Shown piece by piece: positions 45,162-55,464 of a stretch of 64,000 nt of DNA (within the stretch, counting starts at the first letter, position 1; each line of letters begins with the position of its first letter). The notes under the pieces were generated by a model. That model made no database searches. It was not told the DNA's origin and was given only the letters and a program-made list of their open reading frames with translations. The position numbers and the translations under genes are program-made. Origin of the DNA: Vicinamibacteria bacterium (GTDB taxonomy: Bacteria > Acidobacteriota > Vicinamibacteria > Marinacidobacterales > Marinacidobacteraceae); NCBI GenBank assembly GCA_964291235.2, contig OZ219815.1, positions 1,248,001 through 1,312,000 on the forward strand, read 5' to 3'.

Positions 45162-45307
45162 GCATCCACTCCTGGTGAGTCGCTGCGCCCCCATAACCGA
45201 GCGCAGTACGAACGGGCGACTATATGCGGTTTCCCGACCGGCTCCGAGTACGGACCCCTGCGGTGCGTCCGGCGGATCGCCTGCCGACCCGTAGACTTGG
45301 ACCTCAG

Positions 45308-47992
45308 GTGCGCGTTCGTCTCCCCTTCTTCCTCTCGGGCCTGGTGGGGCTGCTGGCCACCGCCTCGTCCTTCGCCCAGCCACCCTCGCCGGAGGACGTT
45401 CTCGGTTACCCGATGGGTGGTTCCCTTACCGACTACGGGGGGTTGTACCGGTACCTCGACGCCATTGAGGAATCCCCGCGACTCCGCGTCGCGGCTTTCG
45501 GCGAGACCTTCGAACATCGCGAACTGATCCTCTTGACCATCAGTGCGCCAGGAAATCTCGCCCGGCTGGAGGAGATCCAGCGCGACACGCGGCGCCTCGC
45601 CGATCCGCGCGGGCTGACCGACGAAGAAGCCGAAGCGATGATTGCGAGTACCCCCGCCGGGGTCTTCCTCAACTACGGAAACGACGGCAACGAGTCCGCT
45701 GCCTTCGAGGCGGCGCTGTGGATGGCGTGGGAATTGCTGTCCGGCCGTCACGACGAGCTCCTCGAGGACCTCGTCGTGTACATCGTCCCCGCCTCGAACC
45801 CCGACAGCCATGAACGCTTCGCGGCGTGGTTCAAGACTACGCACCGGTGGCCGGATGGCGATCCCGACCCGAACGCCGTCGAACACCGTGCGCCCTGGGG
45901 CCTATCGACGAACAACAACCACTACCAGATCAACCTGAACCGGGATTCCGTCTGGAGCACCCAGCCCGAGAACCGAGCGCTCGTCCGGCTCTACCTCGAT
46001 ACCCGGCCGATGGTCTTCGTGGACCACCACGGCGAGACCGACTCGTTTATCGGCCCTTGGATGGCCGAGCCGCTCCACACCGTGCTCACCGAGAACCAGC
46101 GCGACTGGCTCGTGGAATACGGCCGGGCGATGGCGAGCGACTTCGCGGAGGAGGGATTCCCCTACTCGCCATGGGAATTCGGCCAGTTCGATCCGGGCTA
46201 CTGGGACACTCTGCCCAATTTCACCGGTTCCATCGGCTTCACCCTCGAGACCACCGGGGGCGGCTGGCGCGGGCTCCGTCTGGCCCGGGCCGGCGGGGGC
46301 GAATACACCCTCCGGGACGGAATCGAGCAGCACCTCATCGCCGACCGCAGCCTGCTCGCGCTCACCGCCGAGAACCGGGAACGGCGGCTCCGCGACTACC
46401 TGGCCTACCGGCGCGAGGCGCTGGACTTCGACGTCCGTCCCGGTGGTTGGTTACTGTCGGGTGCGTCCGACCCCGCGCGTCTCGATGCGGTGCGCGGCGT
46501 GCTTCTCCGGGGCGGCATTGAGGTATGGCGGACTGCGTCCGAGGTCACCGTGGGCGGCGCCCATCCCATGTTCCCCGGCACGGGTCCGACGTCGGACGTC
46601 ACGTTGCCGGCGGGCAGCCTGTTGGTCCCCTGGGCCCAGCCCGAAAGCCGACTGCTTCAGGTGCTCCTGGAGCAGGCTGCCCGGTTCAGTGAGGAGTTTC
46701 TCGACTACGTGGACGAGCACCGCGAACGTCGCGGCGATCCCTCGTTCGGGCACGCGGACATCTGGACGAGCGCCGACGCGTTCTACGACATAACCGCCTG
46801 GTCGGCGCCGCTGACCTACCGGGTGGCGGCGTGGACGGTCGATTCGGGGGACCTGCCGTCTCTCGGTGGTGCCGAGGCGATGTCCCTCGAAGATGCGCTG
46901 GCCGATCCGTCCCCCACGGCGGGCGAGTTTCGAAATCCCGGTGCCGGCTACGCCTTCGTCGTTGCCGGGGACTCCGATCATGCGGTCCGCGCCGGGACGT
47001 GGCTACGGGAAGCCGGGGTCCCGTTCCGGGTGGCGACCGCCGACTTCGAGGTCGCGGGAGAGAGTTTCGGCCGCGGCGCCCTGCTCGTTTTCGCCGCGGA
47101 AGCACCCGACCAGCCGGCGCTCCGCACCGCCCTCCTGGACCTGGCGGAAACCGGCGCCCGGATCCTCGGGGTCAGCGGCCCGTTGACGACCTCGGGCCCC
47201 CACCTGGGATCGGACCAGTTCGTGCCGGTGGTTCCGGGTCGCGTCGCCATGGTGATGGGTGGTCCGGTGCGGCCGTCCGCCTACGGCAGCCCGTGGTATC
47301 TCTTCGAGCGCCGCTTCGGACTCGAGTTCACCGCGCTGTCCTGGGATCGGCTCGCCGCCACCGATCTCCGCGGCTATCGGGTTCTGATCCTCGCGGATGG
47401 CAACTATCCGGATCCGGGAAGGGATCCCCGGGCCAGGCAGGTGCTCGACCACCTGGAGGAGTGGACATCTCGGGGTGGCGTCGTCATTGCCATGCGCGGC
47501 GCCTCGGCTTGGCTGGCGGGGGAGGAGGTTTCCTGGGTCCGGACCCGGCTGAAGCCAGGCTTCGCCTCGAAATCCGCGTTCATGACCGACGGCGGGCGCC
47601 CTGACGACCCCGAACCGGACGCGCTGGATGTCGCACAACCCGCCGAGGTCGTCCCCGGGGCGATCCTCCGCGCCCTCCCCAACCCGGAGAATTTCCTCAG
47701 CTTCGGTTACGAGGAGCCGTTCCCGGTGATGGTCTGGTCGAGCCTCGCGTTCGAGCCGGACCCGGCGGTCGCGGTGGCCGCCCGGTTCCCCGACGATCCG
47801 GACGAACTCCTCGGCAGCGGTTTCGCCTTCCCCGATTCCCTCGCCCGCCTCGCCGGAACGCCCTACCTGGTCACCGAGCGCGTCGGCTCCGGCCGCGTCG
47901 TGCTTTTCCTCGACGATCCCAACTTCCGGCTCTTCTGGGACGGCCTCACCCGGCTCTTCATGAACGCCGTCCTCTTCGGCCCGAGCTTCTGA
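45308..47992 (+). CDS. Exported M14-family zinc carboxypeptidase-like protein with C-terminal GATase-like domain
   Basis: FGETFEHREL, NPDSHERF, NLNRD, FVDHHGE, FYDITAWS, GRVVLFLDDPNFR; start uncertain. Confidence 0.85.
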   Translation: MRVRLPFFLSGLVGLLATASSFAQPPSPEDVLGYPMGGSLTDYGGLYRYLDAIEESPRLRVAAFGETFEHRELILLTISAPGNLARLEEIQRDTRRLADPRGLTDEEAEAMIASTPAGVFLNYGNDGNESAAFEAALWMAWELLSGRHDELLEDLVVYIVPASNPDSHERFAAWFKTTHRWPDGDPDPNAVEHRAPWGLSTNNNHYQINLNRDSVWSTQPENRALVRLYLDTRPMVFVDHHGETDSFIGPWMAEPLHTVLTENQRDWLVEYGRAMASDFAEEGFPYSPWEFGQFDPGYWDTLPNFTGSIGFTLETTGGGWRGLRLARAGGGEYTLRDGIEQHLIADRSLLALTAENRERRLRDYLAYRREALDFDVRPGGWLLSGASDPARLDAVRGVLLRGGIEVWRTASEVTVGGAHPMFPGTGPTSDVTLPAGSLLVPWAQPESRLLQVLLEQAARFSEEFLDYVDEHRERRGDPSFGHADIWTSADAFYDITAWSAPLTYRVAAWTVDSGDLPSLGGAEAMSLEDALADPSPTAGEFRNPGAGYAFVVAGDSDHAVRAGTWLREAGVPFRVATADFEVAGESFGRGALLVFAAEAPDQPALRTALLDLAETGARILGVSGPLTTSGPHLGSDQFVPVVPGRVAMVMGGPVRPSAYGSPWYLFERRFGLEFTALSWDRLAATDLRGYRVLILADGNYPDPGRDPRARQVLDHLEEWTSRGGVVIAMRGASAWLAGEEVSWVRTRLKPGFASKSAFMTDGGRPDDPEPDALDVAQPAEVVPGAILRALPNPENFLSFGYEEPFPVMVWSSLAFEPDPAVAVAARFPDDPDELLGSGFAFPDSLARLAGTPYLVTERVGSGRVVLFLDDPNFRLFWDGLTRLFMNAVLFGPSF

Positions 47993-48136
47993 TCAGATCC
48001 CCTCGACCGGAATCGTGATTCCGGGGGCGGCGGCCAGCCGCCGGGCGGGCATGGAGATCCCCTCCATGGCGGTGCGCGCCCTGAGGCGTCGCTTCATGGA
48101 CTCCGGGAGGTTCCGAACCGGGATCGTGGCGACCAT
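47993..48136 (-). pseudogene. Degenerate FitA/Arc-like ribbon-helix-helix antitoxin fragment (47 aa)
   Basis: MVATIPVRNLPESMKRRLRARTAMEGISM resembles the FitA-type pattern ATITIRNLxxxxKxxLRxRAAxxGxSM, then diverges; no adjacent toxin gene. Confidence 0.55.
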
Positions 48137-48270
48137 GAACGCAGAACGATCTCGTCCACTTGGCTTGTTGAGTGACGTGCAAATGCATGTGAGGCTCCGG
48201 CTCCAGGGATGACAAGAAATGGCGTGCCCCGCGCTTAGCGTTCCCGCCTCGAACAAGGAGAAGAGAGAGA

Positions 48271-51129
48271 TTGAAGAAGTACGACCGTTTCCTGACACGC
48301 GACTACCTGATGGCCGCGCTCCACCGCGCCCTCCGGGACAAGAAGCTCGGATCGAAGCTCCTGAGCTGGATCGGGTCGAGCGACGACGAACTCGAGACGA
48401 TGGATGCCGGATTCCTGACGGTGAAATTCCGGGAGTTGGGTCTCGACGACGGAGATGAAGGCGAACCCGGCTTCGGCTTCGGAGGCCGCCGGAGGCGCCC
48501 CGGTCGCCGGCGCCGAACCGGCGACAGCCCGGCGCCTGCGAGCGCACGGGCAAAGGAGTTCCTGGCCTGGGCGGTCGACGCCGTTGAGCAGTCCGTTGCC
48601 GAGCCGCCTGCCGAAGGGGCCGAGGCGCGCGCAACGGCGCTGGCGGTGCGCCGCTTCCAGCTCGACGGAGCGTGCGGTCGGCTGTTGGAACTCGCGCGCC
48701 TCTACGACGACCGCAAATCGCCCGCGGAGGAGCTCTGGGACACCGTGAAGGACGCCCTCGGCGATCCTCTGGAGGCGAGCGCGGTGCTGCTCGGCACTGC
48801 GCGATCACGCGTCGAACGATCGTTGCGCAAACTGACCGAAGTCGGGATCGCCGATGCGGACAACTGGAGCAGGAACGGAGCCGAACCCGCCAGCTACGTG
48901 GAGGGCTGGTTCGATTGCGTCTATCGCCCTCCGGTCGCCGACGAAGGGGAACTCCGCGAGCGCCTGGTCCCCCTGGCCCCGGAGCCGCTCCTGGAGATTG
49001 AAGCCTTCGATCACCTCGACGCCCGGGAGGACGCGATTCGCCTGCTCGCGGCCGCGACCCGGTCGGGAGAGAGCGTCCGCCTGCTCTTCTATGGCAGGGC
49101 CGGAACGGGCAAGACCGAAGCTGCGAAGACGCTTGTCCGCGCTGCTGGGGGCCGCCTCTACGACCTTTGCGAACCCGAATCCGGCGGTATCTGGGGGGAG
49201 GAGCGCACGGACCGCCGGATGGACCGCTCGGCGGACAAGCGGAACCGCCTGCGGATGGCGTTGGCGCTGCTCAGGAGCGAGCCCGGGGCGGCCGTCCTCT
49301 GTGACGAGGTGGAAGACGTGTTGTCGTCCAGCGACGGCAGCCGTCGGGAAAACCACAGTCTTCTGGAGGGTGCCGCGGTTCCCATCGTGTTTACCGGCAA
49401 CGATCTCTCCCGGTTCGACGAGGCGGTGCTGCGGCGTTTCGACTTGGCCATTCACTTCAAGGCCCACAGCCCGACCCGCCGCCGCTCGGTGGTGCGCCGG
49501 ATGCTGGACAATTCGGGCCTCGAGACCGTCGAGGCGGAAGCGGTGGAATCTCTTGCGATGCGGCTTGCCGACGAACTGGAGTGTCCTCCGGGGATCATCG
49601 AACGAGCGATCCGCTCGGCCCGTCTGATTCAGGGCTCTCCGGACGACGTCTTCCGGTTCGCCGAGCGTCACGAGCGAACCATCTCGACGCACATTCCGCG
49701 CCCACGCCTCGGGGCGCCGGTAACGGCGGAACTGCCTTGGGAAGCGTTCGGTCACCTCGACGAGCGCGCCGAGGACTTCCGGCAGTTCTTCAGGGCGGCG
49801 CTGTGCGCACGCCGGGACGGACGCGCCGAAAGCAGGGGCATTACGTTCCTGGCCTACGGCCCCCCCGGCTGCGGCAAGACGGAGTTCTGCCGGACGGCGG
49901 CCGCCGAAGCCGGGGCAACCCTCTATTCCGTGGGAAATCAGGAACTCGGGCCCGAGTCGCGCCGCCCGGTGTCCCGCCGTACGAGTCTGGAGTACGCGAT
50001 CGAAGCACTCACGGACGAACCAAACGCGGTGATCCTCTTCGACGAGTTGGAGGACTTCGTCTTCTCCAGCGACAGCCCGCCCAAACACTGGATGAACAAC
50101 CTGGCGGAGGAGTCGCCGGTGCCCATCCTGTTCACGGCCAACTCGATCCGGGCTTTGCGCGAGCATCTGCCGTACCTTCTGGACCGGATGACGTACTCGC
50201 TGGAGTTCCGCGATCTTCCACGGGGCAATCGAGCCGCTATTTTCCGTACTCTGCTGCGCGCGAACGAGTCAGCCGACATGGCGTCTCTGGCCGAGGAGCT
50301 GGCGGCTGACCCCCGCGTCACTCCGCGCCAGGTCCGGGACGCCGGTCTGGTGGCCGTTTTGTCGGGGAGAGGCCCCGACGCTGCCAGGCGAGCCCAGCGG
50401 GAGAAGGCTCAGCTTCTCCGGGGAAAGGGCATGGCCGAAGCGAAGGCGGCGGAGAAGTACGACTTCTCTCTGGTCCACGCCGACCCGGATCTCGCCGCGT
50501 TGACAGACCGGATCGTGAGGATCGGTCGCCGCCGGATGGGGATCCTTCTCGACGGCCCGTCCGGGAGCGGGAAATCCGAGTACGCGAAGCAACTCGCGAA
50601 GCGGATGGACCTCGATCTCCTGACGAAGCGCGCGTCGGACTTGATGAGCAAGTGGGTCGGGGAGACCGAGCAGCAGATCGCCGGCGCCTTCGCCGAGGCC
50701 CGAGCGACGGACAGCTTCCTGATCATCGACGAGGCGGACTCGTTCCTCACCGACCGCCGTGACGCGCAGCGGAGTTGGGAGACCTCCATGGTGAACGAGA
50801 TGCTGAGCCACCTCGAAAACCACGACCTTCCCTACGCCTTCTCAACCAATTTCGCGGACCGGTTGGACCCGGCGGTCGCCCGGCGTTTCCTCTTCCGGGC
50901 GACCTTCAAGTTCCTGGACGAGCCTCGCGTTGTCCGCGCCTGGGAGTTCTTCTTCGGGGGTGAATGTCCGGAGCAAGTGCGAAACCTCACTCGTCTCGTG
51001 CCCGCGGACTTCGCCCTCGTTTGTGAGCGCGCCGAGAAGCTCGGCTTCCTCAACAATCCCGATCAGATCGCCTCGGAACTTGTCTCCCAGTCCCGCGACC
51101 AGAACCGCACCCGTGCGGTCGGCTTCTGA
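48271..51129 (+). CDS. AAA+ ATPase with three tandem AAA modules
   Basis: RBS AAGGAG; Walker A GRAGTGKT, GPPGCGKT, GPSGSGKS; Walker B LCDEVE, LFDELE, IIDEAD; pore loop SKWVGETE; C-terminal AVGF. Confidence 0.92.
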   Translation: MKKYDRFLTRDYLMAALHRALRDKKLGSKLLSWIGSSDDELETMDAGFLTVKFRELGLDDGDEGEPGFGFGGRRRRPGRRRRTGDSPAPASARAKEFLAWAVDAVEQSVAEPPAEGAEARATALAVRRFQLDGACGRLLELARLYDDRKSPAEELWDTVKDALGDPLEASAVLLGTARSRVERSLRKLTEVGIADADNWSRNGAEPASYVEGWFDCVYRPPVADEGELRERLVPLAPEPLLEIEAFDHLDAREDAIRLLAAATRSGESVRLLFYGRAGTGKTEAAKTLVRAAGGRLYDLCEPESGGIWGEERTDRRMDRSADKRNRLRMALALLRSEPGAAVLCDEVEDVLSSSDGSRRENHSLLEGAAVPIVFTGNDLSRFDEAVLRRFDLAIHFKAHSPTRRRSVVRRMLDNSGLETVEAEAVESLAMRLADELECPPGIIERAIRSARLIQGSPDDVFRFAERHERTISTHIPRPRLGAPVTAELPWEAFGHLDERAEDFRQFFRAALCARRDGRAESRGITFLAYGPPGCGKTEFCRTAAAEAGATLYSVGNQELGPESRRPVSRRTSLEYAIEALTDEPNAVILFDELEDFVFSSDSPPKHWMNNLAEESPVPILFTANSIRALREHLPYLLDRMTYSLEFRDLPRGNRAAIFRTLLRANESADMASLAEELAADPRVTPRQVRDAGLVAVLSGRGPDAARRAQREKAQLLRGKGMAEAKAAEKYDFSLVHADPDLAALTDRIVRIGRRRMGILLDGPSGSGKSEYAKQLAKRMDLDLLTKRASDLMSKWVGETEQQIAGAFAEARATDSFLIIDEADSFLTDRRDAQRSWETSMVNEMLSHLENHDLPYAFSTNFADRLDPAVARRFLFRATFKFLDEPRVVRAWEFFFGGECPEQVRNLTRLVPADFALVCERAEKLGFLNNPDQIASELVSQSRDQNRTRAVGF

Positions 51130-51169
51130 CGGAGAGAAGGACGCCGGCCGGCGCACAGGCCCGGGAGCC

Positions 51170-51205
51170 CCCACCGGGAGAACCGGGCCGGCCTCCAGGC
51201 CGGCG
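51170..51205 (+). repeat. Left 36-bp imperfect direct repeat containing a REP-like hairpin
   Basis: cccaccgggagaaccgggccggcctccaggccggcg, 30/36 identical to 51922-51957. Confidence 0.65.
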
Positions 51206-51257
51206 CAGCCCCGCAAAGCGCGGCGAACCCACGCCCTCAGCCAGAACTTGGTCTAAC

Positions 51258-51329
51258 TTGACCATGGCTCTCGGTGTTTGACCGCGGCTCGCGGGTTTGA
51301 CCATGGCTCCCAGGCTTTGACCATGGCTC
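51258..51329 (+). repeat. Direct-repeat array A (4 units, iteron-like)
   Basis: TTGACC(AT/GC)GGCTC units at 51258, 51278, 51297, 51317 (spacing 20, 19, 20). Confidence 0.9.
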
Positions 51330-51549
51330 GCGGGCGCCTCCCGGGTCTGGGACCGCGGTCTCTCCGAATTGCCGATCTTCCAATCGAAATCCGGAAGAAG
51401 ACCGCCGGAATGGCCGAATCCATGCCGCAAGAGGCCGGTTTTGGGCCGGAAACAACCGATCCCGCCGAGAAACCCGCGAAATCCCGATTTCGGGGTGGAA
51501 ACGCCCAAATGCGGCAATTGACCACGCCTTCACGGTCCATATCGACGAA

Positions 51550-51621
51550 ATGACCATGGTTCTCGACGTTTGACCATGGTTCTCGATGTTTGACCATGGC
51601 TCTCCTGTTTGACCATGGCTC
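51550..51621 (+). repeat. Direct-repeat array B (4 units, iteron-like)
   Basis: (A/T)TGACCATGGYTC units at 51550, 51570, 51590, 51609 (spacing 20, 20, 19). Confidence 0.9.
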
Positions 51622-51921
51622 AGGAAGAGGCGGTCTTGAAGAGCCAGGGAACGTCGGTCTTGATTGAGACCGGTGCTGCAAATCGCTGCCGCGGCAAAAG
51701 CGCGGGTACGGCTTGGAGCGCTGTCGAGAAACGGATCACCGATCTCATCACAACCTTGGACTCCGCTTAGGTCTTGGCTGGCGGCGGCGTGTGCCGGCAA
51801 GGACCGCAGCACATCGGAGGTTTATGTTCCGGTACCCCCTTTGTGGGCCACTGGTCGTGAAGGTGATCGAGCAGGCGTACTGTCCGGGGGATTGGGTACA
51901 CGGTTCCGCGTGTTGTGGCCT

Positions 51922-51957
51922 CCCACCGGGAGGACGGGGCCGACCTGGAGGTCGGCG
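51922..51957 (+). repeat. Right 36-bp imperfect direct repeat containing a REP-like hairpin
   Basis: cccaccgggaggacggggccgacctggaggtcggcg. Confidence 0.65.
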
Positions 51958-51977
51958 GTCCCTTCCCTGACGAGCTT

Positions 51978-52466
51978 CTAGGGTTCGTCGAGTTCTGCCG
52001 CCGCGAGGCCGACCTGGACGATCCGCCGCTGATCCACCCCGGCGACGCCGACGTACTTGAAGACGGCGCCATCGAGCACGCGAGGTGCGGCGGCTTGCAC
52101 CACGACGGCCTGTTCGCCGGTCAGCAACGCCGCGAACGGGGCCGCCCGCGAATCCGCAGCGGGATCGGTAGGGAACGCGAAATCCACGCCATCCACGTTC
52201 GTGAACGCGATCTCGCCGTTCTCGTCGCTTACCCAGAACTCCGAGACGATGGTTTCATCCGCGACGCGCTTCAGGACGGCGTTGATCGCTTCCCGGTCCA
52301 TCCCGGCCTTGAGCGCGGCGTCCACGAAGTGGGCAGTGAGCGTCGCCTCAGCCACCATGTGTTTCGAGACGGCGTCATGCGCCGCCGGCTGCTGCGTTCC
52401 CATCGCTACACCTCCCAAGAGAGCAAGGGCCGCCACCGAGGCGGTCGTCCATCGCAACGTTCTCAT
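51978..52466 (-). CDS. Exported stand-alone Cache/PDC-like domain protein
   Basis: Signal peptide; EFWVSDENGEI..TN and FKYVGVAG...IVQVG typical of Cache-like sensor domains. Confidence 0.6.
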   Translation of the reverse strand: MRTLRWTTASVAALALLGGVAMGTQQPAAHDAVSKHMVAEATLTAHFVDAALKAGMDREAINAVLKRVADETIVSEFWVSDENGEIAFTNVDGVDFAFPTDPAADSRAAPFAALLTGEQAVVVQAAAPRVLDGAVFKYVGVAGVDQRRIVQVGLAAAELDEP

Positions 52467-52524
52467 ATTCGGTCCTCCGAGGCTCCACGAAAGTCGCTTG
52501 GCGAGCGAACCCCGGCGCGGAGGA

Positions 52525-53094
52525 TCAGGGATGGAGTTGGCGTCCGGTGATCCCGAGCTCCTCGGCGTGCGGCCGGAGCGCGTCCACGATGAAATCGATG
52601 TGCTCGCCGAGGTCCACACCGAGCAATTCGGCGCCGAAGCGGCACTCGTGGCGTTCCACCTTCGCCGCGAACCGCTTGTCCTTCAGTTTCTTCTTGACGC
52701 TCCTGGCGCCCAGCGTCGAGATCCCTTCGGGCCGCACCAGAGCGCAGGCGACGATGAACCCGGTGAGTTCGTCGCAGGCGAGGAGCGCCTTGTCCATCGC
52801 TGACTTCCACTCGACGCCCCATTTCGTGTAGTGGCCGGAGATCGCGTAGGCGAGTTCCTCCTCGCCGCGCTCGCGCAACCAGCCGACGATCCGGTTCGGA
52901 TGGTCCTCGGGCCACTTTTCGTAGTCGGCGTCGTGGAGCATGCCCGCGATACCCCACACGTCGGGGTCTGCATCCGGCTCGCCGTAGCGGCCGGCGGCCG
53001 CCCGCATGACGACCTCAACCGCGCGGGCGTGCTTCTGGAGCGAATCGGTCTCGCACCAGGTGGTGAGGTGCGCCCAGGCTTCGTCGCGGGTCAT
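52525..53094 (-). CDS. HD-domain metal-dependent phosphohydrolase
   Basis: KHARAVE, GMLHDADYE, ACDELTGFI, KDKRFAAKV. Confidence 0.9.
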   Translation of the reverse strand: MTRDEAWAHLTTWCETDSLQKHARAVEVVMRAAAGRYGEPDADPDVWGIAGMLHDADYEKWPEDHPNRIVGWLRERGEEELAYAISGHYTKWGVEWKSAMDKALLACDELTGFIVACALVRPEGISTLGARSVKKKLKDKRFAAKVERHECRFGAELLGVDLGEHIDFIVDALRPHAEELGITGRQLHP

Positions 53095-53495
53095 TCCGGG
53101 TTCTTTCCTCCCGGAGGACAACAGGACTCGATGCTCCACTTGCCGGAACCGGTGGTGGCGATGAAGAGGAACGCGAAGGCGAAGAGCGTCGCCAGTTCGC
53201 CGTCGTTCTGAATGGGCAGCAGCCCGTCCGGCTGGTGGCGGTAGAAGTAGGCGACTGCCATCTGTCCCGACGCGAGGAACGCCGCGATCCGGGTGCGGTA
53301 ACCGACGAGGACCAGCGCACCCGTGACGAACTCGACGACCCCGGCGGTGTTGTAGAGCCACGCCGGGGAGTACGGGGTTCCCTCGCCGAGCAGGAAGAAG
53401 ATCGCCACCACTCCGTGGCAGAAGAAGAGGAAACCGACCATGATGCGCAGCAGCGCGTAGGCCGTTTCCCGGTGCGGCGCCAGCACGGTCTTCAT
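53091..53495 (-). CDS. DoxX family membrane protein
   Basis: LLRIMVGFLFFCHG, AGVVEF..G..TRIAAF, GSGKWSI. Confidence 0.9.
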   Translation of the reverse strand: MKTVLAPHRETAYALLRIMVGFLFFCHGVVAIFFLLGEGTPYSPAWLYNTAGVVEFVTGALVLVGYRTRIAAFLASGQMAVAYFYRHQPDGLLPIQNDGELATLFAFAFLFIATTGSGKWSIESCCPPGGKNPE

Positions 53496-53508: not shown

Positions 53509-55464
53509 TCACTCGGACTCCGGGAGCGCCAGCGCCACGAACTCGCCCGGATGGTCCGGGGCGCCGACCGCGACCACGATGAACTGCCGGCCGTCCGCCA
53601 GGTAGCTCATCGGCGTGCCGGACTGGTTCGCCGGCAGCTCGAACTCCCAGAGGATCTCTCCCGTCGCCTTGTCGTGGGCTCGGAACATGGGCCCGCCACT
53701 GCCGTACGCGGCGAACATCCCCGAGCCTTCGCCGGCGAAGAGGAGGGTCTTGGTGACCAGCAGGCCGCCCCGGTCGGTTTGCCCGGTCCGGCCCAGCTCG
53801 ACGCCGGCGAGCGCCGGGTGCTCGCGGACCCACTGGGGCGTATCGCTGTTTGGGATCTGCCAGAGGATTTCGCCGCGGTTGAGATCGAGCGCGGTGATGA
53901 GTCCCCAGGGTGGCTTCAGCAGCGGCAGGCCCTGCGGGCCGCCACCTTCGGGGAGCCGGATTTCGCGGCGCTGGCCCTGCACGAAGTCCATGGTGGAGCG
54001 CTCCGGATCGTGCTCGAGCCCGAGGATGTTGATGTCGAGACCCGACGACACGTACACGACTCCGGTCTCCGGGTCGGCGGCCACGCTCGGCCAGTTCGCG
54101 CCGCCGAGCGCGCCCGGAACGGTCAGCGTTCCCCGGTTTCCCCGCGGTTCCATGACCGTGGGCGGAGTGAACAGCGGACCGAGCGTGTAGAACCTCGCGA
54201 TCCGAAGGGCTTCTTCCTTCAGTTCCGGGGTGAGGTCGAGCAGGTCGTCCTCACTCACGCCCTGCCGCTGGAAGGGAGGGGGCTTCGTGGGGAACGGCTG
54301 TGTCGGAGCCGTGCGCTCGCCCGGCACGTTCGACTCCGGCATGGGGCGCTCCTCGATCGGCCACACCGGTTCGCCGGTGCGGCGGTCGAGAACGAAGGTG
54401 AACGCCTGCTTGGTGACTTGGGCGAGGGCGGGGATTTCCCGCCCGTCCACGGTCAAATCGAGGAGCACCGGCGCCGTCGGGAGGTCGTAGTCCCAGATCC
54501 CGTGGTGGACCGTCTGGTAGTGCCAGCGGCGTTCCCCGGTGGCCACGTCGAGGGCGACCACGCTCTGGGTAAAGAGGTTGTCACCGGGACGGTGTCCGCC
54601 GTAGTAGTCCCCGGTGCCGGCCTCGGTGGGCAGATAGACCAGTCCCAGTTCCGGGTCGGCGCTCATCCAGGACCAGACGCCCCCGTTGCCGGTGAACCGC
54701 CAACTGTCGTCCTCCCAGGTGTCGTTTCCGAACTCGCCCTCGCGCGGAATCGTGTGAAAAGTCCACAGCAGCTCTCCTGAGTGGACGTCGTAGCCGCGCA
54801 CCGGCGAAGGCGAGTTCTCCGGCGATGGCGGCGCGCCGCCGCTCACCAGCGCCGCCCCTACCACGACCACGTCGCCAACCACCGTCGGCGGCGATCCGGA
54901 GCCGATGGCCGCGGTCTCGACGTCCACCTCCCTGCCGAGATCGCGGCGCAGGTCCACCATCCCGTCCAGGCCGAAACCGGGGATCAGTCTCCCGGTCTCC
55001 GCCTCGAGCGCCACCAGCCGATAGGCCGGGGTGACCAGGAACACGCGCGCGGTCTCGCCGTCGCTCCAGAACGCCACGCCCCGTCCGGACGTCTGGCGGG
55101 GTGCCGACTCCCCGCGCGTGCCCTCGTCGAAACGGAAGGTCCAGAGCGTCTCCCCGGTGGCGGCATCGATCGCTACCGCCGCCCGTCGGGCGCCCGCAGT
55201 GACGTAGACCACCCCGTCGAGCATCAGCGGGGTGGCCCGCAGGTTCAGGTCGGGACGCGGCCCGAAGTTCCGCGAAGTCCAGCGCCAGGCAATTTCCAGT
55301 TGGTCCACGTTACCGGCGTGGATCTGATCCAGCGGGGAATAGCGGGTCGAAGACAGGTCCGCGGCGTAATGCGGCCATTCCCCGGGCTCCCGCTCTTGCG
55401 CGAGTGCCGGGGTGGCGACGACCCCAAGCGCCGCCGCGAGCCCGATCAGTCCCCGGAGTACCAA
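53509..55464 (-). CDS. PQQ-dependent glucose/quinate-type dehydrogenase, exported
   Basis: RYSPLDQI, ATPL, WHYQTVHHGIWDYD, GGANW, TPMSY. Confidence 0.9.
   Translation of the reverse strand: MVLRGLIGLAAALGVVATPALAQEREPGEWPHYAADLSSTRYSPLDQIHAGNVDQLEIAWRWTSRNFGPRPDLNLRATPLMLDGVVYVTAGARRAAVAIDAATGETLWTFRFDEGTRGESAPRQTSGRGVAFWSDGETARVFLVTPAYRLVALEAETGRLIPGFGLDGMVDLRRDLGREVDVETAAIGSGSPPTVVGDVVVVGAALVSGGAPPSPENSPSPVRGYDVHSGELLWTFHTIPREGEFGNDTWEDDSWRFTGNGGVWSWMSADPELGLVYLPTEAGTGDYYGGHRPGDNLFTQSVVALDVATGERRWHYQTVHHGIWDYDLPTAPVLLDLTVDGREIPALAQVTKQAFTFVLDRRTGEPVWPIEERPMPESNVPGERTAPTQPFPTKPPPFQRQGVSEDDLLDLTPELKEEALRIARFYTLGPLFTPPTVMEPRGNRGTLTVPGALGGANWPSVAADPETGVVYVSSGLDINILGLEHDPERSTMDFVQGQRREIRLPEGGGPQGLPLLKPPWGLITALDLNRGEILWQIPNSDTPQWVREHPALAGVELGRTGQTDRGGLLVTKTLLFAGEGSGMFAAYGSGGPMFRAHDKATGEILWEFELPANQSGTPMSYLADGRQFIVVAVGAPDHPGEFVALALPESE

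What the first reader, a model, noticed from the sequence alone, without database searches (positions are those of the whole stretch)
47993..51977. Candidate undescribed module: RHH remnant + triple-AAA ATPase + repeat/bent-DNA site
Seen: between two ordinary metabolic genes lies a ~4-kb block with a divergent FitA-like RHH ORF, the three-module AAA+ gene, and directly downstream a bounded non-coding element with phased repeat arrays. Established: ATPase + RHH adaptor + iterated site is the layout of partition systems, and AAA+ ATPases also occur in defence and toxin-antitoxin modules. Inference: this could be a new nucleoprotein remodelling, segregation or defence system, or the eroded remnant of an integrated element. 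The RHH ORF looks decayed, so functional linkage of the three parts is unproven.
Basis: inference. Interest (0 to 1): 0.8.

Follow-up and report, generated by a model that had tools for sequence, protein, structure and literature searches.

The report
Three unrelated neighbours, not one module
The suspected new system is three unrelated things lying side by side in a variable gene islet: a broken toxin-antitoxin gene, a lone three-engine AAA+ ATPase, and an orphan array of protein-binding repeats whose likely binding protein is encoded elsewhere in the genome.

Summary
All three features are real and lie at the stated coordinates, but they do not form a module.

1. **RHH ORF (47993-48136, minus strand).** It is a deletion relic of a vapBC/fitAB toxin-antitoxin pair. 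The antitoxin's N-terminus is fused to the last ~14 codons of the PIN toxin. The pair looks intact in three sister genomes.
2. **952-aa gene (48271-51129).** It encodes a three-module classical AAA+ ATPase like Cdc48, with an N-terminal helical bundle and a winged-helix-like domain. In other phyla its relatives sit beside a WYL regulator gene (44 of 74 loci). Here it has no such neighbour.
3. **Repeat arrays (51258-51621).** They are one of four copies in this genome of a two-part iteron element. The ATPase gene occurs once. The other copies lie among unrelated genes. One copy abuts a 295-aa protein with a C-terminal winged-helix domain. That protein family always sits beside tandem arrays, each with its own repeat sequence.

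The whole ~4-kb block is missing in at least three genomes of the same genus, where the two flanking genes are 202-282 bp apart. Each of its parts varies independently.

The by-products are moderately interesting: an AAA-WYL gene pair, and a family of winged-helix proteins each with private repeat arrays.

The parts
47993..48136 (-). Relic of a vapBC/fitAB toxin-antitoxin pair. The RHH antitoxin N-terminus (residues 1-~31) is fused in frame to the last ~14 codons of the PIN toxin. About 460 bp have been deleted.
   Evidence: tblastn: residues 1-34 match the antitoxin N-terminus and residues 32-45 match the toxin C-terminus RRLAAAPGITIPVE. The two matches lie 458 nt apart in G001/G013. Intact ORFs are L046:11136-11375 (FitA-like_RHH, 2.5e-11) and L046:11365-11751 (PIN, 2.7e-13).
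48271..51129 (+). Triple AAA+ ATPase, 952 aa, TTG start 9 nt after AAGGAG. Residues 1-114 form a helical bundle and ~115-230 a winged-helix-like domain. AAA-1 spans ~250-480, AAA-2 ~500-720 and AAA-3 ~735-952. The KWVGE pore loop is in module 3. The C-terminal GF is invariant.
   Evidence: Pfam; alignments A1 and A3; AlphaFold2 model with pLDDT 80.3 and pTM 0.68; Foldseek top hits are Cdc48/p97/Rix7/NVL; N-terminal model and VIA-align give Z 6-7.2 to winged-helix domains; module comparisons.
51143..51227 (.). Copy of a REP-like twin-hairpin dispersed repeat just after the ATPase stop codon. It probably acts as a terminator or insulator hairpin (inference).
   Evidence: Positions 14-98 of the 848-bp query match 80+ places in the genome. 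The unit sequence was read.
51258..51329 (+). Left iteron array: 4 copies of TTGACCATGGYTC with 19-20 bp spacing.
51330..51517 (.). Spacer of the bipartite element, 188 bp, GC 0.62 against 0.67 for the window. It is rich in CCGGAA/GAATTCG-like words. No DnaA box with up to 1 mismatch, and no significant RNA fold.
51518..51621 (+). Right iteron array: one degenerate copy, a 32-bp step, then 4 copies with 19-20 bp spacing.
   Evidence: The same 1+3-4 layout is seen in most of the 24 copies aligned.
51922..51957 (.). Second partial REP-like repeat, 83% identical to 51170-51205, just after the stop codon of the convergent 213-aa gene.

Best explanation
The ~4-kb block is a small, variable accessory islet between a conserved M14 peptidase gene and a conserved 213-aa gene. 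The organism is a marine Vicinamibacteria (Acidobacteriota) bacterium of the 'Ca. Marinacidobacterium' type. The islet's three noticed features are independent.

**(a) The RHH ORF is dead.** It is what remains of a vapBC (FitA-like RHH antitoxin plus PIN toxin) pair after a ~460-bp internal deletion. The deletion joined antitoxin codon ~31 to the toxin's last ~14 codons. The junction lies at a shared Arg-Arg-Leu stretch; the role of that stretch in the deletion is inferred.

**(b) The ATPase works alone here.** It is a classical-clade AAA+ protein with three apparently active modules. Modules 1 and 2 are a duplication. Only module 3 has the aromatic pore loop. It therefore most likely acts as a ring-forming, ATP-driven protein unfoldase or remodeller. 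The N-terminal helical bundle plus winged-helix-like domain would select the target or tether the ring to nucleic acid. It descends from a widespread two-AAA family that is normally paired with an HTH-WYL-WCX regulator. That pairing suggests a stress-, DNA-damage- or phage-induced role. All of this function is inferred, not shown.

**(c) The arrays are an orphan copy of a bipartite iteron element.** Each array holds 3-5 sites spaced two helical turns apart, and the two arrays are separated by ~160-250 bp. The most likely binder is the 295-aa protein with a C-terminal winged-helix domain encoded at G000:C2:1702406-1703290, next to another copy. It would act in trans and coat each array cooperatively on one face of the DNA. 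What the resulting complex does is not known. Candidate roles are a site-specific anchor, a silencing or insulating complex, or a selfish protein-plus-array element that spreads and leaves orphan arrays.
For: **Independence of the three parts**
- The ATPase gene occurs once in the genome.
- The iteron element occurs at 4 loci with 8, 11, 9 and 8 sites. Elsewhere in 3.45 Mb only 3 single sites have 1 mismatch or fewer.
- The other three copies are flanked by unrelated genes: BNR/sortilin, LD-carboxypeptidase, a PQQ-like propeller and a methyltransferase.

**Status of the islet across the genus**
- Eight genus loci were examined (G000, G001, G004, G005, G006, G008, G009, G013). M14 followed by the ATPase is conserved in all 8.
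- The iteron element is present in 3 of them: G000, G001 and G013, at 72-74% identity.
- vapBC looks intact in 3. In G008 it is interrupted by an IS1634 transposase. In G000 it is a relic. It is not found in G005, G006 or G009.
- The slot after the ATPase holds different cargo elsewhere. G005 and G006 have a 614-621-aa RNase H-like protein, frameshifted in G008. G009 has a methylase-Mrr fusion. G004 has a DUF1028 protein.
- An empty site exists. G014, G007 and G010 have the two flanking genes 202-282 bp apart.

**ATPase**
- Three Walker A and three Walker B motifs are invariant in 58 sequences.
- The top PDB matches by sequence and by fold are VAT, Cdc48, p97, Rix7 and NVL.
- Modules 1 and 2 are 32% identical (E 4e-19). 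Each is 24-28% identical to module 3.
- A WYL-like ORF lies beside the homologue at 44 of 74 loci. Of these, 32 are directly downstream on the same strand and 4 directly upstream. Pfam confirmed WYL or WCX domains in 8.
- A RefSeq-annotated example lies on a Leisingera plasmid.

**Array-binding protein**
- Six full-length orthologues of the 295-aa protein end 6-44 bp from the right-hand array.
- The G009 orthologue, 60% identical, sits beside TTGACCATTG arrays. A 39%-identical paralogue sits beside GAGCTGGGGTGATAA arrays with the same two-part layout.
- Ten of 12 family loci in five sister genomes have an adjacent array.
- In this genome 3 of 3 family genes have an array within ~120 bp. The background is 39 such arrays in 3.45 Mb.
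- Eight of 13 members hit the Fic-like_C winged-helix family at E 0.008 or better.
- The element at locus C is a clean presence/absence difference: ~440 bp in G000 against 35-73 bp in G005 and G004.
Against: - The iteron element lies directly after the ATPase in three species of the genus. Some local link is therefore not excluded. They may simply share one ancestral insertion, since G001 and G013 are nearly identical there.
- No experiment or binding prediction links the 295-aa protein to the iterons. The case rests on adjacency and on repeat sequences that change with the protein.
- No remnant of that gene is detectable in the window.
- The winged-helix assignment of the ATPase N-terminus rests on Z 6-7.2. 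The tool's own note says this can reflect a common helical arrangement.
- The WYL link comes from relatives that are 33-50% identical. It is absent in this lineage: 0 of 15 family loci, apart from one second copy in G017 with a WYL ORF 3.5 kb away.
- The ATPase sits at the same locus in two other genera (G025, G020). It may therefore be an old resident gene lost in some genomes rather than mobile cargo.
Confidence: 0.8

Rival explanations
1. One functional module, as first proposed. The RHH protein is an adaptor, the AAA+ ATPase is the motor, and the arrays are its DNA site. Together they would form a partition-like, remodelling or defence system.
For: The three parts are physically adjacent in G000. 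The ATPase and the arrays are also adjacent, in the same orientation, in G001 and G013. The ATPase N-terminus may contain a winged-helix domain.
Against: There are 4 array loci against 1 ATPase gene. The arrays are absent at 5 of 8 genus loci and at 6 of 6 loci in other genera. The RHH ORF is a truncated antitoxin fused to a toxin tail, on the opposite strand. G014 has family proteins with arrays but no ATPase. The ATPase is not of the ParA, ParM or TubZ type.
Confidence: 0.03
2. The iteron element is the vestige of an iteron-type plasmid or satellite replication origin (Rep protein plus iterons plus an easily melted spacer). It would have integrated and then decayed.
For: The repeats have ~20-21 bp phasing and form two arrays around a spacer of slightly lower GC (mean 0.62 in 24 copies against 0.68 for the genome). 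A ~300-aa protein with a C-terminal winged helix is encoded next to the array. This layout recalls Rep-iteron origins (from established knowledge, recalled).
Against: No DnaA box with 1 mismatch or fewer was found. There was no match in 72,556 plasmids, 50,697 phages or the viral contigs. No Rep, Par, relaxase or integrase gene lies beside any of the four own copies or the two paralogue loci. The N-terminal part of the protein is low-complexity and not Rep-like. There are four or more copies per chromosome, lying between ordinary genes.
Confidence: 0.08
3. The ATPase remodels or strips the nucleoprotein complexes formed on the arrays by the 295-aa protein. Adjacency in three genomes would then reflect a functional but loose partnership.
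For: AAA+ unfoldases do disassemble DNA-bound complexes (established knowledge, recalled). There is adjacency in 3 genomes. A 52%-identical paralogue of the gene flanking iteron copy D occupies the post-ATPase slot in G005 and G006.
Against: Phyletic patterns disagree. G005, G006 and G009 have the ATPase but no exact TTGACCATGG iteron pairs. G014 has family proteins and arrays but no ATPase. Relatives of the ATPase in other phyla pair with WYL genes, not with arrays.
Confidence: 0.05
4. The arrays are cis-regulatory or insulating sites for the neighbouring genes. For example they could block read-through between convergent genes, rather than being an element in their own right.
For: At least 2 of the 4 own copies (A and C) lie exactly between convergent genes. 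REP-like hairpins flank copy A.
Against: The element has the same two-part architecture whatever the neighbouring gene orientation, in 24 copies. Sister genomes manage with 35-73 bp at the same site. The promoter scan found 0 sites.
Confidence: 0.06

Closest known systems
VapBC / FitAB type II toxin-antitoxin pairs (RHH antitoxin plus PIN toxin)
   Same: Sister genomes carry a 79-aa FitA-like RHH protein overlapping a 128-aa PIN protein at this exact spot. The window ORF keeps the antitoxin's N-terminal strand-helix and the toxin's last residues.
   Different: In the window the pair is destroyed. There is no PIN domain and no antitoxin C-terminus. The 47-aa product hits no family model.
Type II classical AAA+ unfoldases (archaeal VAT, Cdc48/p97, Rix7/NVL, AFG2)
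   Same: These are the best sequence and fold matches (VAT E 1e-23; Foldseek E ~1e-13). Shared features are Walker A/B motifs, a second region of homology with arginines, and a KWVGE pore loop in the last module.
   Different: It has three AAA modules in one chain instead of two. Only the last module has an aromatic pore loop. The N-terminal domain is different (helical bundle plus winged-helix-like). There is an invariant C-terminal Gly-Phe. The oligomeric state is unknown.
IetA/IteA anti-phage ATPase (IetAS system)
   Same: It is the best defence-library match to module 3 (PADLOC IetA 7.4e-29; NCBIfam IteA 97 bits).
   Different: The score is far below the family cut-off (97 against 510 bits). 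Only one module is covered. No IetS-type protease gene lies nearby.
Defence or stress operons controlled by WYL regulators (BrxR-BREX, CapW-CBASS, PafBC; names recalled, papers seen only as a search listing)
   Same: Relatives of the ATPase sit next to an HTH-WYL-WCX gene at 44 of 74 loci. One plasmid example continues with ADP-ribosylglycohydrolase and PD-(D/E)XK nuclease genes.
   Different: No WYL gene lies within 8 kb in this lineage. The genome's single WYL gene is 466 kb away. A pair of multi-AAA and WYL genes matches no PADLOC system beyond the partial IetA hit.
Iteron or centromere arrays with their binding proteins (plasmid Rep-iterons, ParR-parC of plasmid R1; recalled)
   Same: Direct repeats are phased about two helical turns apart, in two blocks around a central region. 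A small DNA-binding protein is encoded next to one copy. The repeat sequence changes together with the protein.
   Different: The setting is chromosomal, with 4 or more copies per genome, most of them orphan. No Rep, ParA or ParM partner was found. The protein has a Fic-like_C winged helix and a low-complexity N-terminal half. More distant family members use 32-33-bp units in arrays of up to ~35 copies.

Membership tests
VapBC/FitAB type II toxin-antitoxin | RHH (FitA-like) antitoxin domain | tested here: inconclusive
   The window ORF has no Pfam, NCBIfam or PADLOC hit. Its residues 1-34 are 58-67% identical to sister antitoxins, one of which hits PF22513 at 2.5e-11.
VapBC/FitAB type II toxin-antitoxin | Adjacent PIN-domain toxin gene | tested here: not met
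   Only the last ~14 codons survive, fused to the antitoxin. The intact 128-aa PIN gene is present in G001 and G013.
Plasmid-type partition system (ParA/ParM/TubZ plus adaptor plus centromere) | Partition NTPase of the ParA, actin-like or tubulin-like type | tested here: not met
   The ATPase is a classical AAA (PF00004, three stretches). Its nearest solved relatives are VAT and Cdc48.
Plasmid-type partition system (ParA/ParM/TubZ plus adaptor plus centromere) | Adaptor gene in the same operon and a centromere inherited together with it | tested here: not met
   The RHH ORF is on the opposite strand and is a toxin-antitoxin relic. The arrays follow the ATPase at 3 of 14 orthologous loci.
Classical-clade AAA+ ATPase | Walker A and Walker B motifs in each module | tested here: met
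   The motifs are GRAGTGKT/CDE, GPPGCGKT/FDE and GPSGSGKS/IDEAD. The key residues are invariant in 58 sequences.
Classical-clade AAA+ ATPase | Aromatic pore loop 1 (K-aromatic-V-G-E) | tested here: met
   KWVGE is present in module 3 only. Modules 1 and 2 lack it.
Classical-clade AAA+ ATPase | Ring (hexamer) assembly and ATP-driven substrate threading | not testable with these tools
   Only a monomer model was made.
IetA/IteA anti-phage ATPase | Score above the curated family cut-off, and an IetS protease partner | tested here: not met
   NCBIfam NF042959 scores 97.4 bits against a cut-off of 510. No protease partner is among the neighbours.
WYL-linked multi-AAA gene pair (not a described family; defined here) | HTH-WYL-WCX gene directly beside the ATPase gene | tested here: not met
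   None is found in the window or at 15 family loci. The only WYL gene of the genome lies at C1:831977-832171. The feature is met at 44 of 74 homologue loci.
Iteron-type replication origin | Iterons plus an adjacent initiator gene, DnaA boxes and an AT-rich unwinding region | tested here: not met
   Iterons are present. No adjacent gene or gene remnant was found. No DnaA box with 1 mismatch or fewer was found, and spacer GC is 0.62, only slightly below the 0.67 of the window.
Structured non-coding RNA (Rfam) | Match to a curated model or a significant fold | tested here: not met
   The only match is sR53 at 21.7 bits against a gathering score of 49, and it lies inside the ATPase gene. Spacer fold z-scores are -0.36 and -1.47.

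The most novel reading that the evidence does not exclude
The arrays reveal an undescribed kind of chromosomal protein-plus-satellite system in marine or sponge-associated Vicinamibacteria.

- **The proteins.** A lineage-restricted family of ~300-400-aa proteins shares a conserved N-terminal PPGLDAIRRFF..W-rich motif, a low-complexity linker and a C-terminal winged helix.
- **The arrays.** Each protein is encoded beside its own private tandem array. Some arrays are 20-21-bp bipartite iterons. Others are 32-33-bp units in up to ~35 copies. Further orphan arrays of the same repeat are scattered around the chromosome.
- **The behaviour.** The units come and go between convergent genes. They could act as sequence-specific chromosome anchors or compaction sites, or as a new type of selfish DNA.

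Separately, the multi-AAA plus WYL gene pair may be an uncharacterised stress or anti-phage system.
Probability: 0.35. Interest if true: 0.7.

Novelty: new variant of a known kind. Interest (0 to 1): 0.45.

Why it matters
This case shows how adjacency in a single genome can suggest a system that comparison with a dozen relatives dissolves. The real content matters in three ways.

**1. A small, well-bounded variable islet in an uncultured marine Acidobacteriota lineage.** It records toxin-antitoxin decay, insertion-sequence (IS) insertion and cargo swapping.

**2. A three-module AAA+ protein.** Its relatives form a conserved pair with WYL regulators across Proteobacteria, Latescibacterota, Gemmatimonadota and others. 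If that pair is a defence or damage-response system, it has cultured, tractable hosts such as Paracoccus, Gemmobacter, Xanthobacter and Leisingera. It would also add a Cdc48-like unfoldase to that repertoire.

**3. A family of winged-helix proteins with private repeat arrays.** No Pfam, NCBIfam or PHROGs model names the full-length protein. If binding is confirmed, the family gives a natural set of orthogonal protein-DNA array pairs. It also poses an open question about their role in chromosome biology.

Tried and rejected
- **Rfam on 47800-52200.** The only match was sR53, below threshold and inside the ATPase gene.
- **RNA folding of the spacer, both strands.** Not better than shuffled sequence.
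- **Promoter and terminator scan.** 0 promoter-like sites. The 2 terminator-like sites lie inside the ATPase gene, fewer than in shuffles.
- **Iteron pattern in viral contigs.** 0 matches.
- **The 401-bp element against plasmids and phages.** No match.
- **Iteron pattern in metagenome contigs.** Only 12 stretches matched.
- **DnaA boxes.** None with 1 mismatch or fewer.
- **Remnant of the 295-aa gene in the window or in G013's copy.** None. One hit, to P0148, lies over the iterons themselves and is an artefact.
- **Family and structure searches for the 295-aa and 561-aa proteins.**
  - PHROGs and NCBIfam: no family for either protein.
  - PDB sequence search: nothing for the 561-aa protein, and only two chance-level hits (E 0.28) for the 295-aa protein.
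  - Protein atlas for the 295-aa protein: only a 0.83 lead to Fic-like_C.
- **A conserved partner gene beside the two own-genome paralogues of the 295-aa protein.** None. The neighbours are peptidases, a PIN protein and a DUF4143 ATPase.
- **Sequencing runs.** No RNA holder was listed, so no reads were laid.
- **Papers.**
  - 'Marinacidobacterium' gave 0 papers.
  - 'three AAA+ domains' plus 'bacterial' gave 0.
  - 'WYL domain' plus 'AAA+ ATPase' plus 'defense' gave 27 papers. Only the listing was seen, plus passages of PMC4012209. Those passages mention NtrC-like AAA+ fusions but no classical multi-AAA/WYL pair.
  - 'IetA' plus 'IetS' gave 7 papers, seen as a listing only.
- **CRISPR reading of the 39-nt repeat arrays.** Rejected. 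The 87-bp and 121-bp units repeat whole, with no unique spacers.
- **Two ORFs (L165, L170) in alignment A6.** They were in the wrong frame and were dropped before alignment A7.

Full report
**Setting.** The window is G000:C1:1248001-1312000 of a 3.45-Mb, 68% GC genome in two contigs. Sister genomes carrying the same locus are titled 'Vicinamibacteria bacterium' and 'Candidatus Marinacidobacterium sp.'. The organism is therefore an uncultured marine member of the Acidobacteriota. The finding spans three things:
- the space between an M14 carboxypeptidase-like gene (45224-47992, plus strand; PF00246 at 1.7e-14) and the ATPase;
- the ATPase gene itself;
- an 848-bp non-coding stretch up to a convergent 213-aa gene (51978-52619, minus strand).

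**Observation.** All three features exist.
- *RHH ORF.* On the minus strand, 47993-48136 reads MVATIPVRNLPESMKRRLRARTAMEGISMPARRLAAAPGITIPVEGI.
- *ATPase gene.* The 952-aa ORF (TTG start 9 nt after AAGGAG) has three PF00004 stretches.
- *Repeats.* Nine copies of TTGACCATGGYTC stand in two blocks, at 51258-51329 and 51518-51621, spaced 19-20 bp apart. Five copies are exact. Tandem Repeats Finder scores them 101 and 108. The rest of the window has no site with fewer than 2 mismatches.
- *Bounding repeats.* The 36-nt direct repeats that 'bound' the element are copies of a REP-like twin hairpin found about 88 times in the genome. They are not ends of the element.

**The RHH ORF is a toxin-antitoxin relic.**
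- By tblastn, residues 1-34 match the start of a 79-aa ORF in G001, G013, G004 and G008 (58-67% identity). Residues 32-45 match, at 93-100% identity, a site 458 nt further on in G001, G013 and G004.
- In G001 these two sites belong to overlapping ORFs. L046:11136-11375 hits FitA-like_RHH (PF22513, 2.5e-11). L046:11365-11751 hits PIN (PF01850, 2.7e-13) and ends ...DRRLAAAPGITIPVEVP.
- The window ORF is therefore vapB codons 1-~31 joined to the last ~14 codons of vapC. The join lies at a shared Arg-Arg-Leu stretch, with ~460 bp lost.
- In G008 the same pair is split by a 577-aa IS1634-family transposase (NF033559, 1e-98).
- G005, G006 and G009 give no match better than E 0.1.
- The RHH thus has its own history and a known partner that is not the ATPase.

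**The ATPase: architecture.**
- Homologues of full length number about 90 in the word-indexed search, at 40-99% identity.
- Among 61 related genomes, 19 have a match at E 1e-30. All 19 are in the same bacterial family (18 of 27, against 0 of 33 outside it). Nine of 15 genomes of the genus have a full-length orthologue.
- In 58 aligned sequences the three Walker A lysines and three Walker B acidic pairs are invariant. So is a C-terminal Gly-Phe.
- The best solved relatives by sequence are VAT, NVL, AFG2, Rix7 and Cdc48/p97.
- An AlphaFold2 model (pLDDT 80.3, pTM 0.68) finds the same set by Foldseek.
- Only module 3 has the K-W-V-G-E pore loop.
- Modules 1 and 2 are 32% identical (E 4e-19). Each is 24-28% identical to module 3.
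- The N-terminal 250 residues, modelled alone (pLDDT 85.1), form a helical bundle (1-114) and a domain (115-230) whose best matches are winged-helix DNA-binding domains. Those matches have Z 6-7.2, a level the tool warns can be a common arrangement.
- Defence libraries give only a partial IetA/IteA match to module 3 (97 bits against a cut-off of 510).

**The ATPase: conserved neighbour in other lineages.**
- The scan of named genomes returned 74 loci. Most encode a 670-770-aa, two-AAA relative.
- A profile built from eight WYL proteins found a WYL-like ORF at 44 of the 74 loci:
  - 32 directly downstream on the same strand;
  - 4 directly upstream on the same strand, including the full triple-AAA genes of a Latescibacterota and a Gemmatimonadota genome;
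  - 2 divergent;
  - 6 elsewhere in the locus;
  - 30 with none, some of them cut by contig ends.
- Pfam confirmed WYL or WCX domains in the 8 seeds.
- On Leisingera plasmid pBMJM1_5, RefSeq annotates, in order, an AAA family ATPase, a WYL domain protein, an ADP-ribosylglycohydrolase and a PD-(D/E)XK nuclease. Insertion sequence (IS) elements lie upstream.
- In the window's own family no WYL ORF lies within 8 kb (0 of 15 loci). The exception is a second copy in G017 with a WYL ORF 3.5 kb away. The genome's single WYL gene is 466 kb away.
- I infer that the triple form arose by duplication of the first module of a WYL-linked two-AAA protein, and that in this lineage it works without that regulator.
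- Its mechanism is inferred from family features, not shown. I take it to be a ring unfoldase or remodeller with an N-terminal targeting domain.

**The islet.**
- In eight genus loci the order M14 then ATPase is conserved. Everything around it varies:
  - vapBC, as described above;
  - a 614-621-aa RNase H-like protein after the ATPase in G005 and G006, frameshifted in G008;
  - a DNA methylase-Mrr fusion and a further PIN pair in G009;
  - a DUF1028 protein in G004;
  - the iteron element in G000, G001 and G013.
In G014, G007 and G010 the M14 gene and the 213-aa gene are 282, 202 and 212 bp apart. In G011 they are 116 bp apart, with the M14 3' end missing. The G014 spacer consists of REP-like hairpins.
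- The ATPase sits at the same place in G025 and near it in G020, which belong to other genera. Loss in some genomes is therefore at least as likely as gain.

**The arrays belong to something else.**
- *Copies in this genome.* The genome has four clusters of the iteron, with 8, 11, 9 and 8 sites at 2 mismatches or fewer:
  - C1:1299258-1299621 (the window copy);
  - C2:700990-701401;
  - C2:1293119-1293514;
  - C2:1702003-1702368.
- *Background.* Outside these clusters only 3 single sites have 1 mismatch or fewer in 3.45 Mb. The pattern read backwards gives 0 matches.
- *Shared architecture.* All four copies have 2-6 sites, a gap of 217-233 bp, then 1 site and 3-5 more.
- *Neighbours of the other three copies.* They are unrelated: BNR/sortilin, LD-carboxypeptidase, PQQ-like propellers, a methyltransferase and two proteins without a family.
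- *Range.* Exact iteron pairs occur in 7 of 61 related genomes, all in the same family, and in only 12 metagenome contig stretches. None was found in viral contigs, plasmids or phages.
- *Conservation of layout.* Twenty-four copies from six genomes of the family (G000, G001, G002, G004, G008, G013 and G020 were sampled) and from metagenomes keep the layout. The gap between the two arrays is 158-252 bp, and spacer GC averages 0.62.
- *Presence/absence.* At locus C the element is a clean difference between convergent genes: ~440 bp in G000 against 35 bp in G005 and 73 bp in G004.

**A candidate binding protein.**
- Copy D is flanked on one side by a 295-aa ORF (C2:1702406-1703290, minus strand) that ends 35 bp from the right-hand array.
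- Full-length orthologues end 6-44 bp from the same array in G013, G020, G008, G009 and one metagenome contig. Short C-terminal remnants lie beside six further copies.
- The repeat changes with the protein. The G009 orthologue (60% identity) sits beside TTGACCATTG and TTGACCAGAG arrays. A 39%-identical paralogue sits beside two blocks of GAGCTGGGGTGATAA, spaced 20-21 bp within each block and ~250 bp apart. More distant paralogues sit beside 32-33-bp arrays of 3-15 units. In all, 10 of 12 loci in five sister genomes have an adjacent array.
- In G000 all 3 family genes have an array within ~120 bp. The background is 39 comparable arrays genome-wide. Orphan arrays of the same 32-bp repeats reach 22-35 units.
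- The family shares an N-terminal PPGLDAIRRFF..W motif, a low-complexity linker and a C-terminal domain. That domain hits Fic-like_C (PF21247) in 8 of 13 members (E 6e-7 to 8e-3; three reach the 27-bit cut-off) and HTH_20 in four.
- A profile search of 1.84 billion representatives finds 53 proteins at E 1e-30, 576 at 1e-10 and 2147 at 1e-3. The weaker matches cover mostly the C-terminal domain.
- No partner gene is conserved beside the paralogues.
- That this protein binds the window's arrays in trans is an inference from adjacency and covariation. No remnant of its gene is present in the window.

**What the arrays do is open.** Phasing at two helical turns, or three for the 32-bp units, would put bound proteins on one face of the DNA and favour cooperative coating (inference).
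- *Replication origin:* weak. There are no DnaA boxes, no Rep-like protein and no plasmid or phage relatives.
- *Structured RNA:* unsupported.
- *Insulator between convergent genes:* fits two copies, but sister genomes do without it.

**One coincidence remains unexplained.** The other flank of copy D is a 561-aa RNase H-like protein from a large family (811 hits). A 52%-identical paralogue of it fills the post-ATPase slot in G005 and G006.

**Verdict.**
- The islet is a variable patch holding a dead toxin-antitoxin pair, a stand-alone triple-AAA ATPase of a WYL-linked family, and an orphan iteron element.
- The ATPase is a new architectural variant of a known kind. The array-plus-winged-helix family may be a new kind of system, but that rests on inference.
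- I could not test expression, because no RNA run was listed. No paper on this lineage or on such a triple-AAA protein turned up in the two searches made.

Noticed in passing
window 51143-51227 and 51922-51957; G000:C1:44741-45610; G000:C1:17042-17620: A REP-like twin-hairpin repeat (CCGGCCTCCAGGCCGG...GCCCCGCGAAGCGGGGC) has about 88 matches in the genome. It occurs singly after gene ends and also as tandem arrays of whole 87-bp and 121-bp units (10 and 5 units at the places named). The arrays are not CRISPR, because the units repeat whole with no unique spacers.
   Followed up: partly
G000:C1:438271-440071, C2:423503-424220, C1:851011-851777, C2:1475385-1476151, C2:223782-224152: Long tandem arrays of 32-33-bp units, with 11 to 35 copies. 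Two of them lie directly upstream of paralogues of the 295-aa winged-helix protein (C1:437061-438155 and C2:224217-225220). The others are orphan copies of the same or related repeats.
   Followed up: partly
L049:5987-7852 (G005), L048:5398-7242 (G006), L045:11392-13253 (G008, frameshifted); G000:C2:1700238-1701923: A 561-621-aa RNase H-like protein belongs to a large, widespread, unnamed family (811 hits). It lies directly after the ATPase in three sister genomes. A 52%-identical paralogue flanks iteron copy D in this genome. The double association with the iteron slot is unexplained.
   Followed up: partly
L186:4128-4411 (G014); also G007, G010, G011: This is the empty site of the islet. The M14 gene and the 213-aa gene are convergent and 116-282 bp apart. 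The spacer consists of REP-like hairpins.
   Followed up: yes
L043:6393-7814 (G009): A DNA methylase (N6_N4_Mtase) is fused to an Mrr-type restriction endonuclease domain. It sits in the variable slot after the ATPase, next to a further PIN toxin pair (L043:4714-5402).
   Followed up: no
L176 region, G009:C1:909790-917263: The intergenic slot that holds iteron copy B in G000 is 7.4 kb long in G009. There it contains a paralogue of the 295-aa protein with a 32-bp array (L170). The same slots are thus reused by different members of the array family.
   Followed up: partly
window 53509-55464 (-): A 651-aa PQQ-dependent alcohol/glucose dehydrogenase gene (PF01011, 6e-190) lies just beyond the finding. 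It is 91-94% identical across the genus and is followed by a DoxX-family gene (53091-53495).
   Followed up: no
L173 (Leisingera thetidis plasmid pBMJM1_5, 83554-90868): An annotated run of genes reads: hypothetical protein, AAA family ATPase, WYL domain protein, ADP-ribosylglycohydrolase, PD-(D/E)XK nuclease. IS66 and IS3 transposase genes lie upstream. This is a tractable example of the AAA-WYL pair.
   Followed up: no
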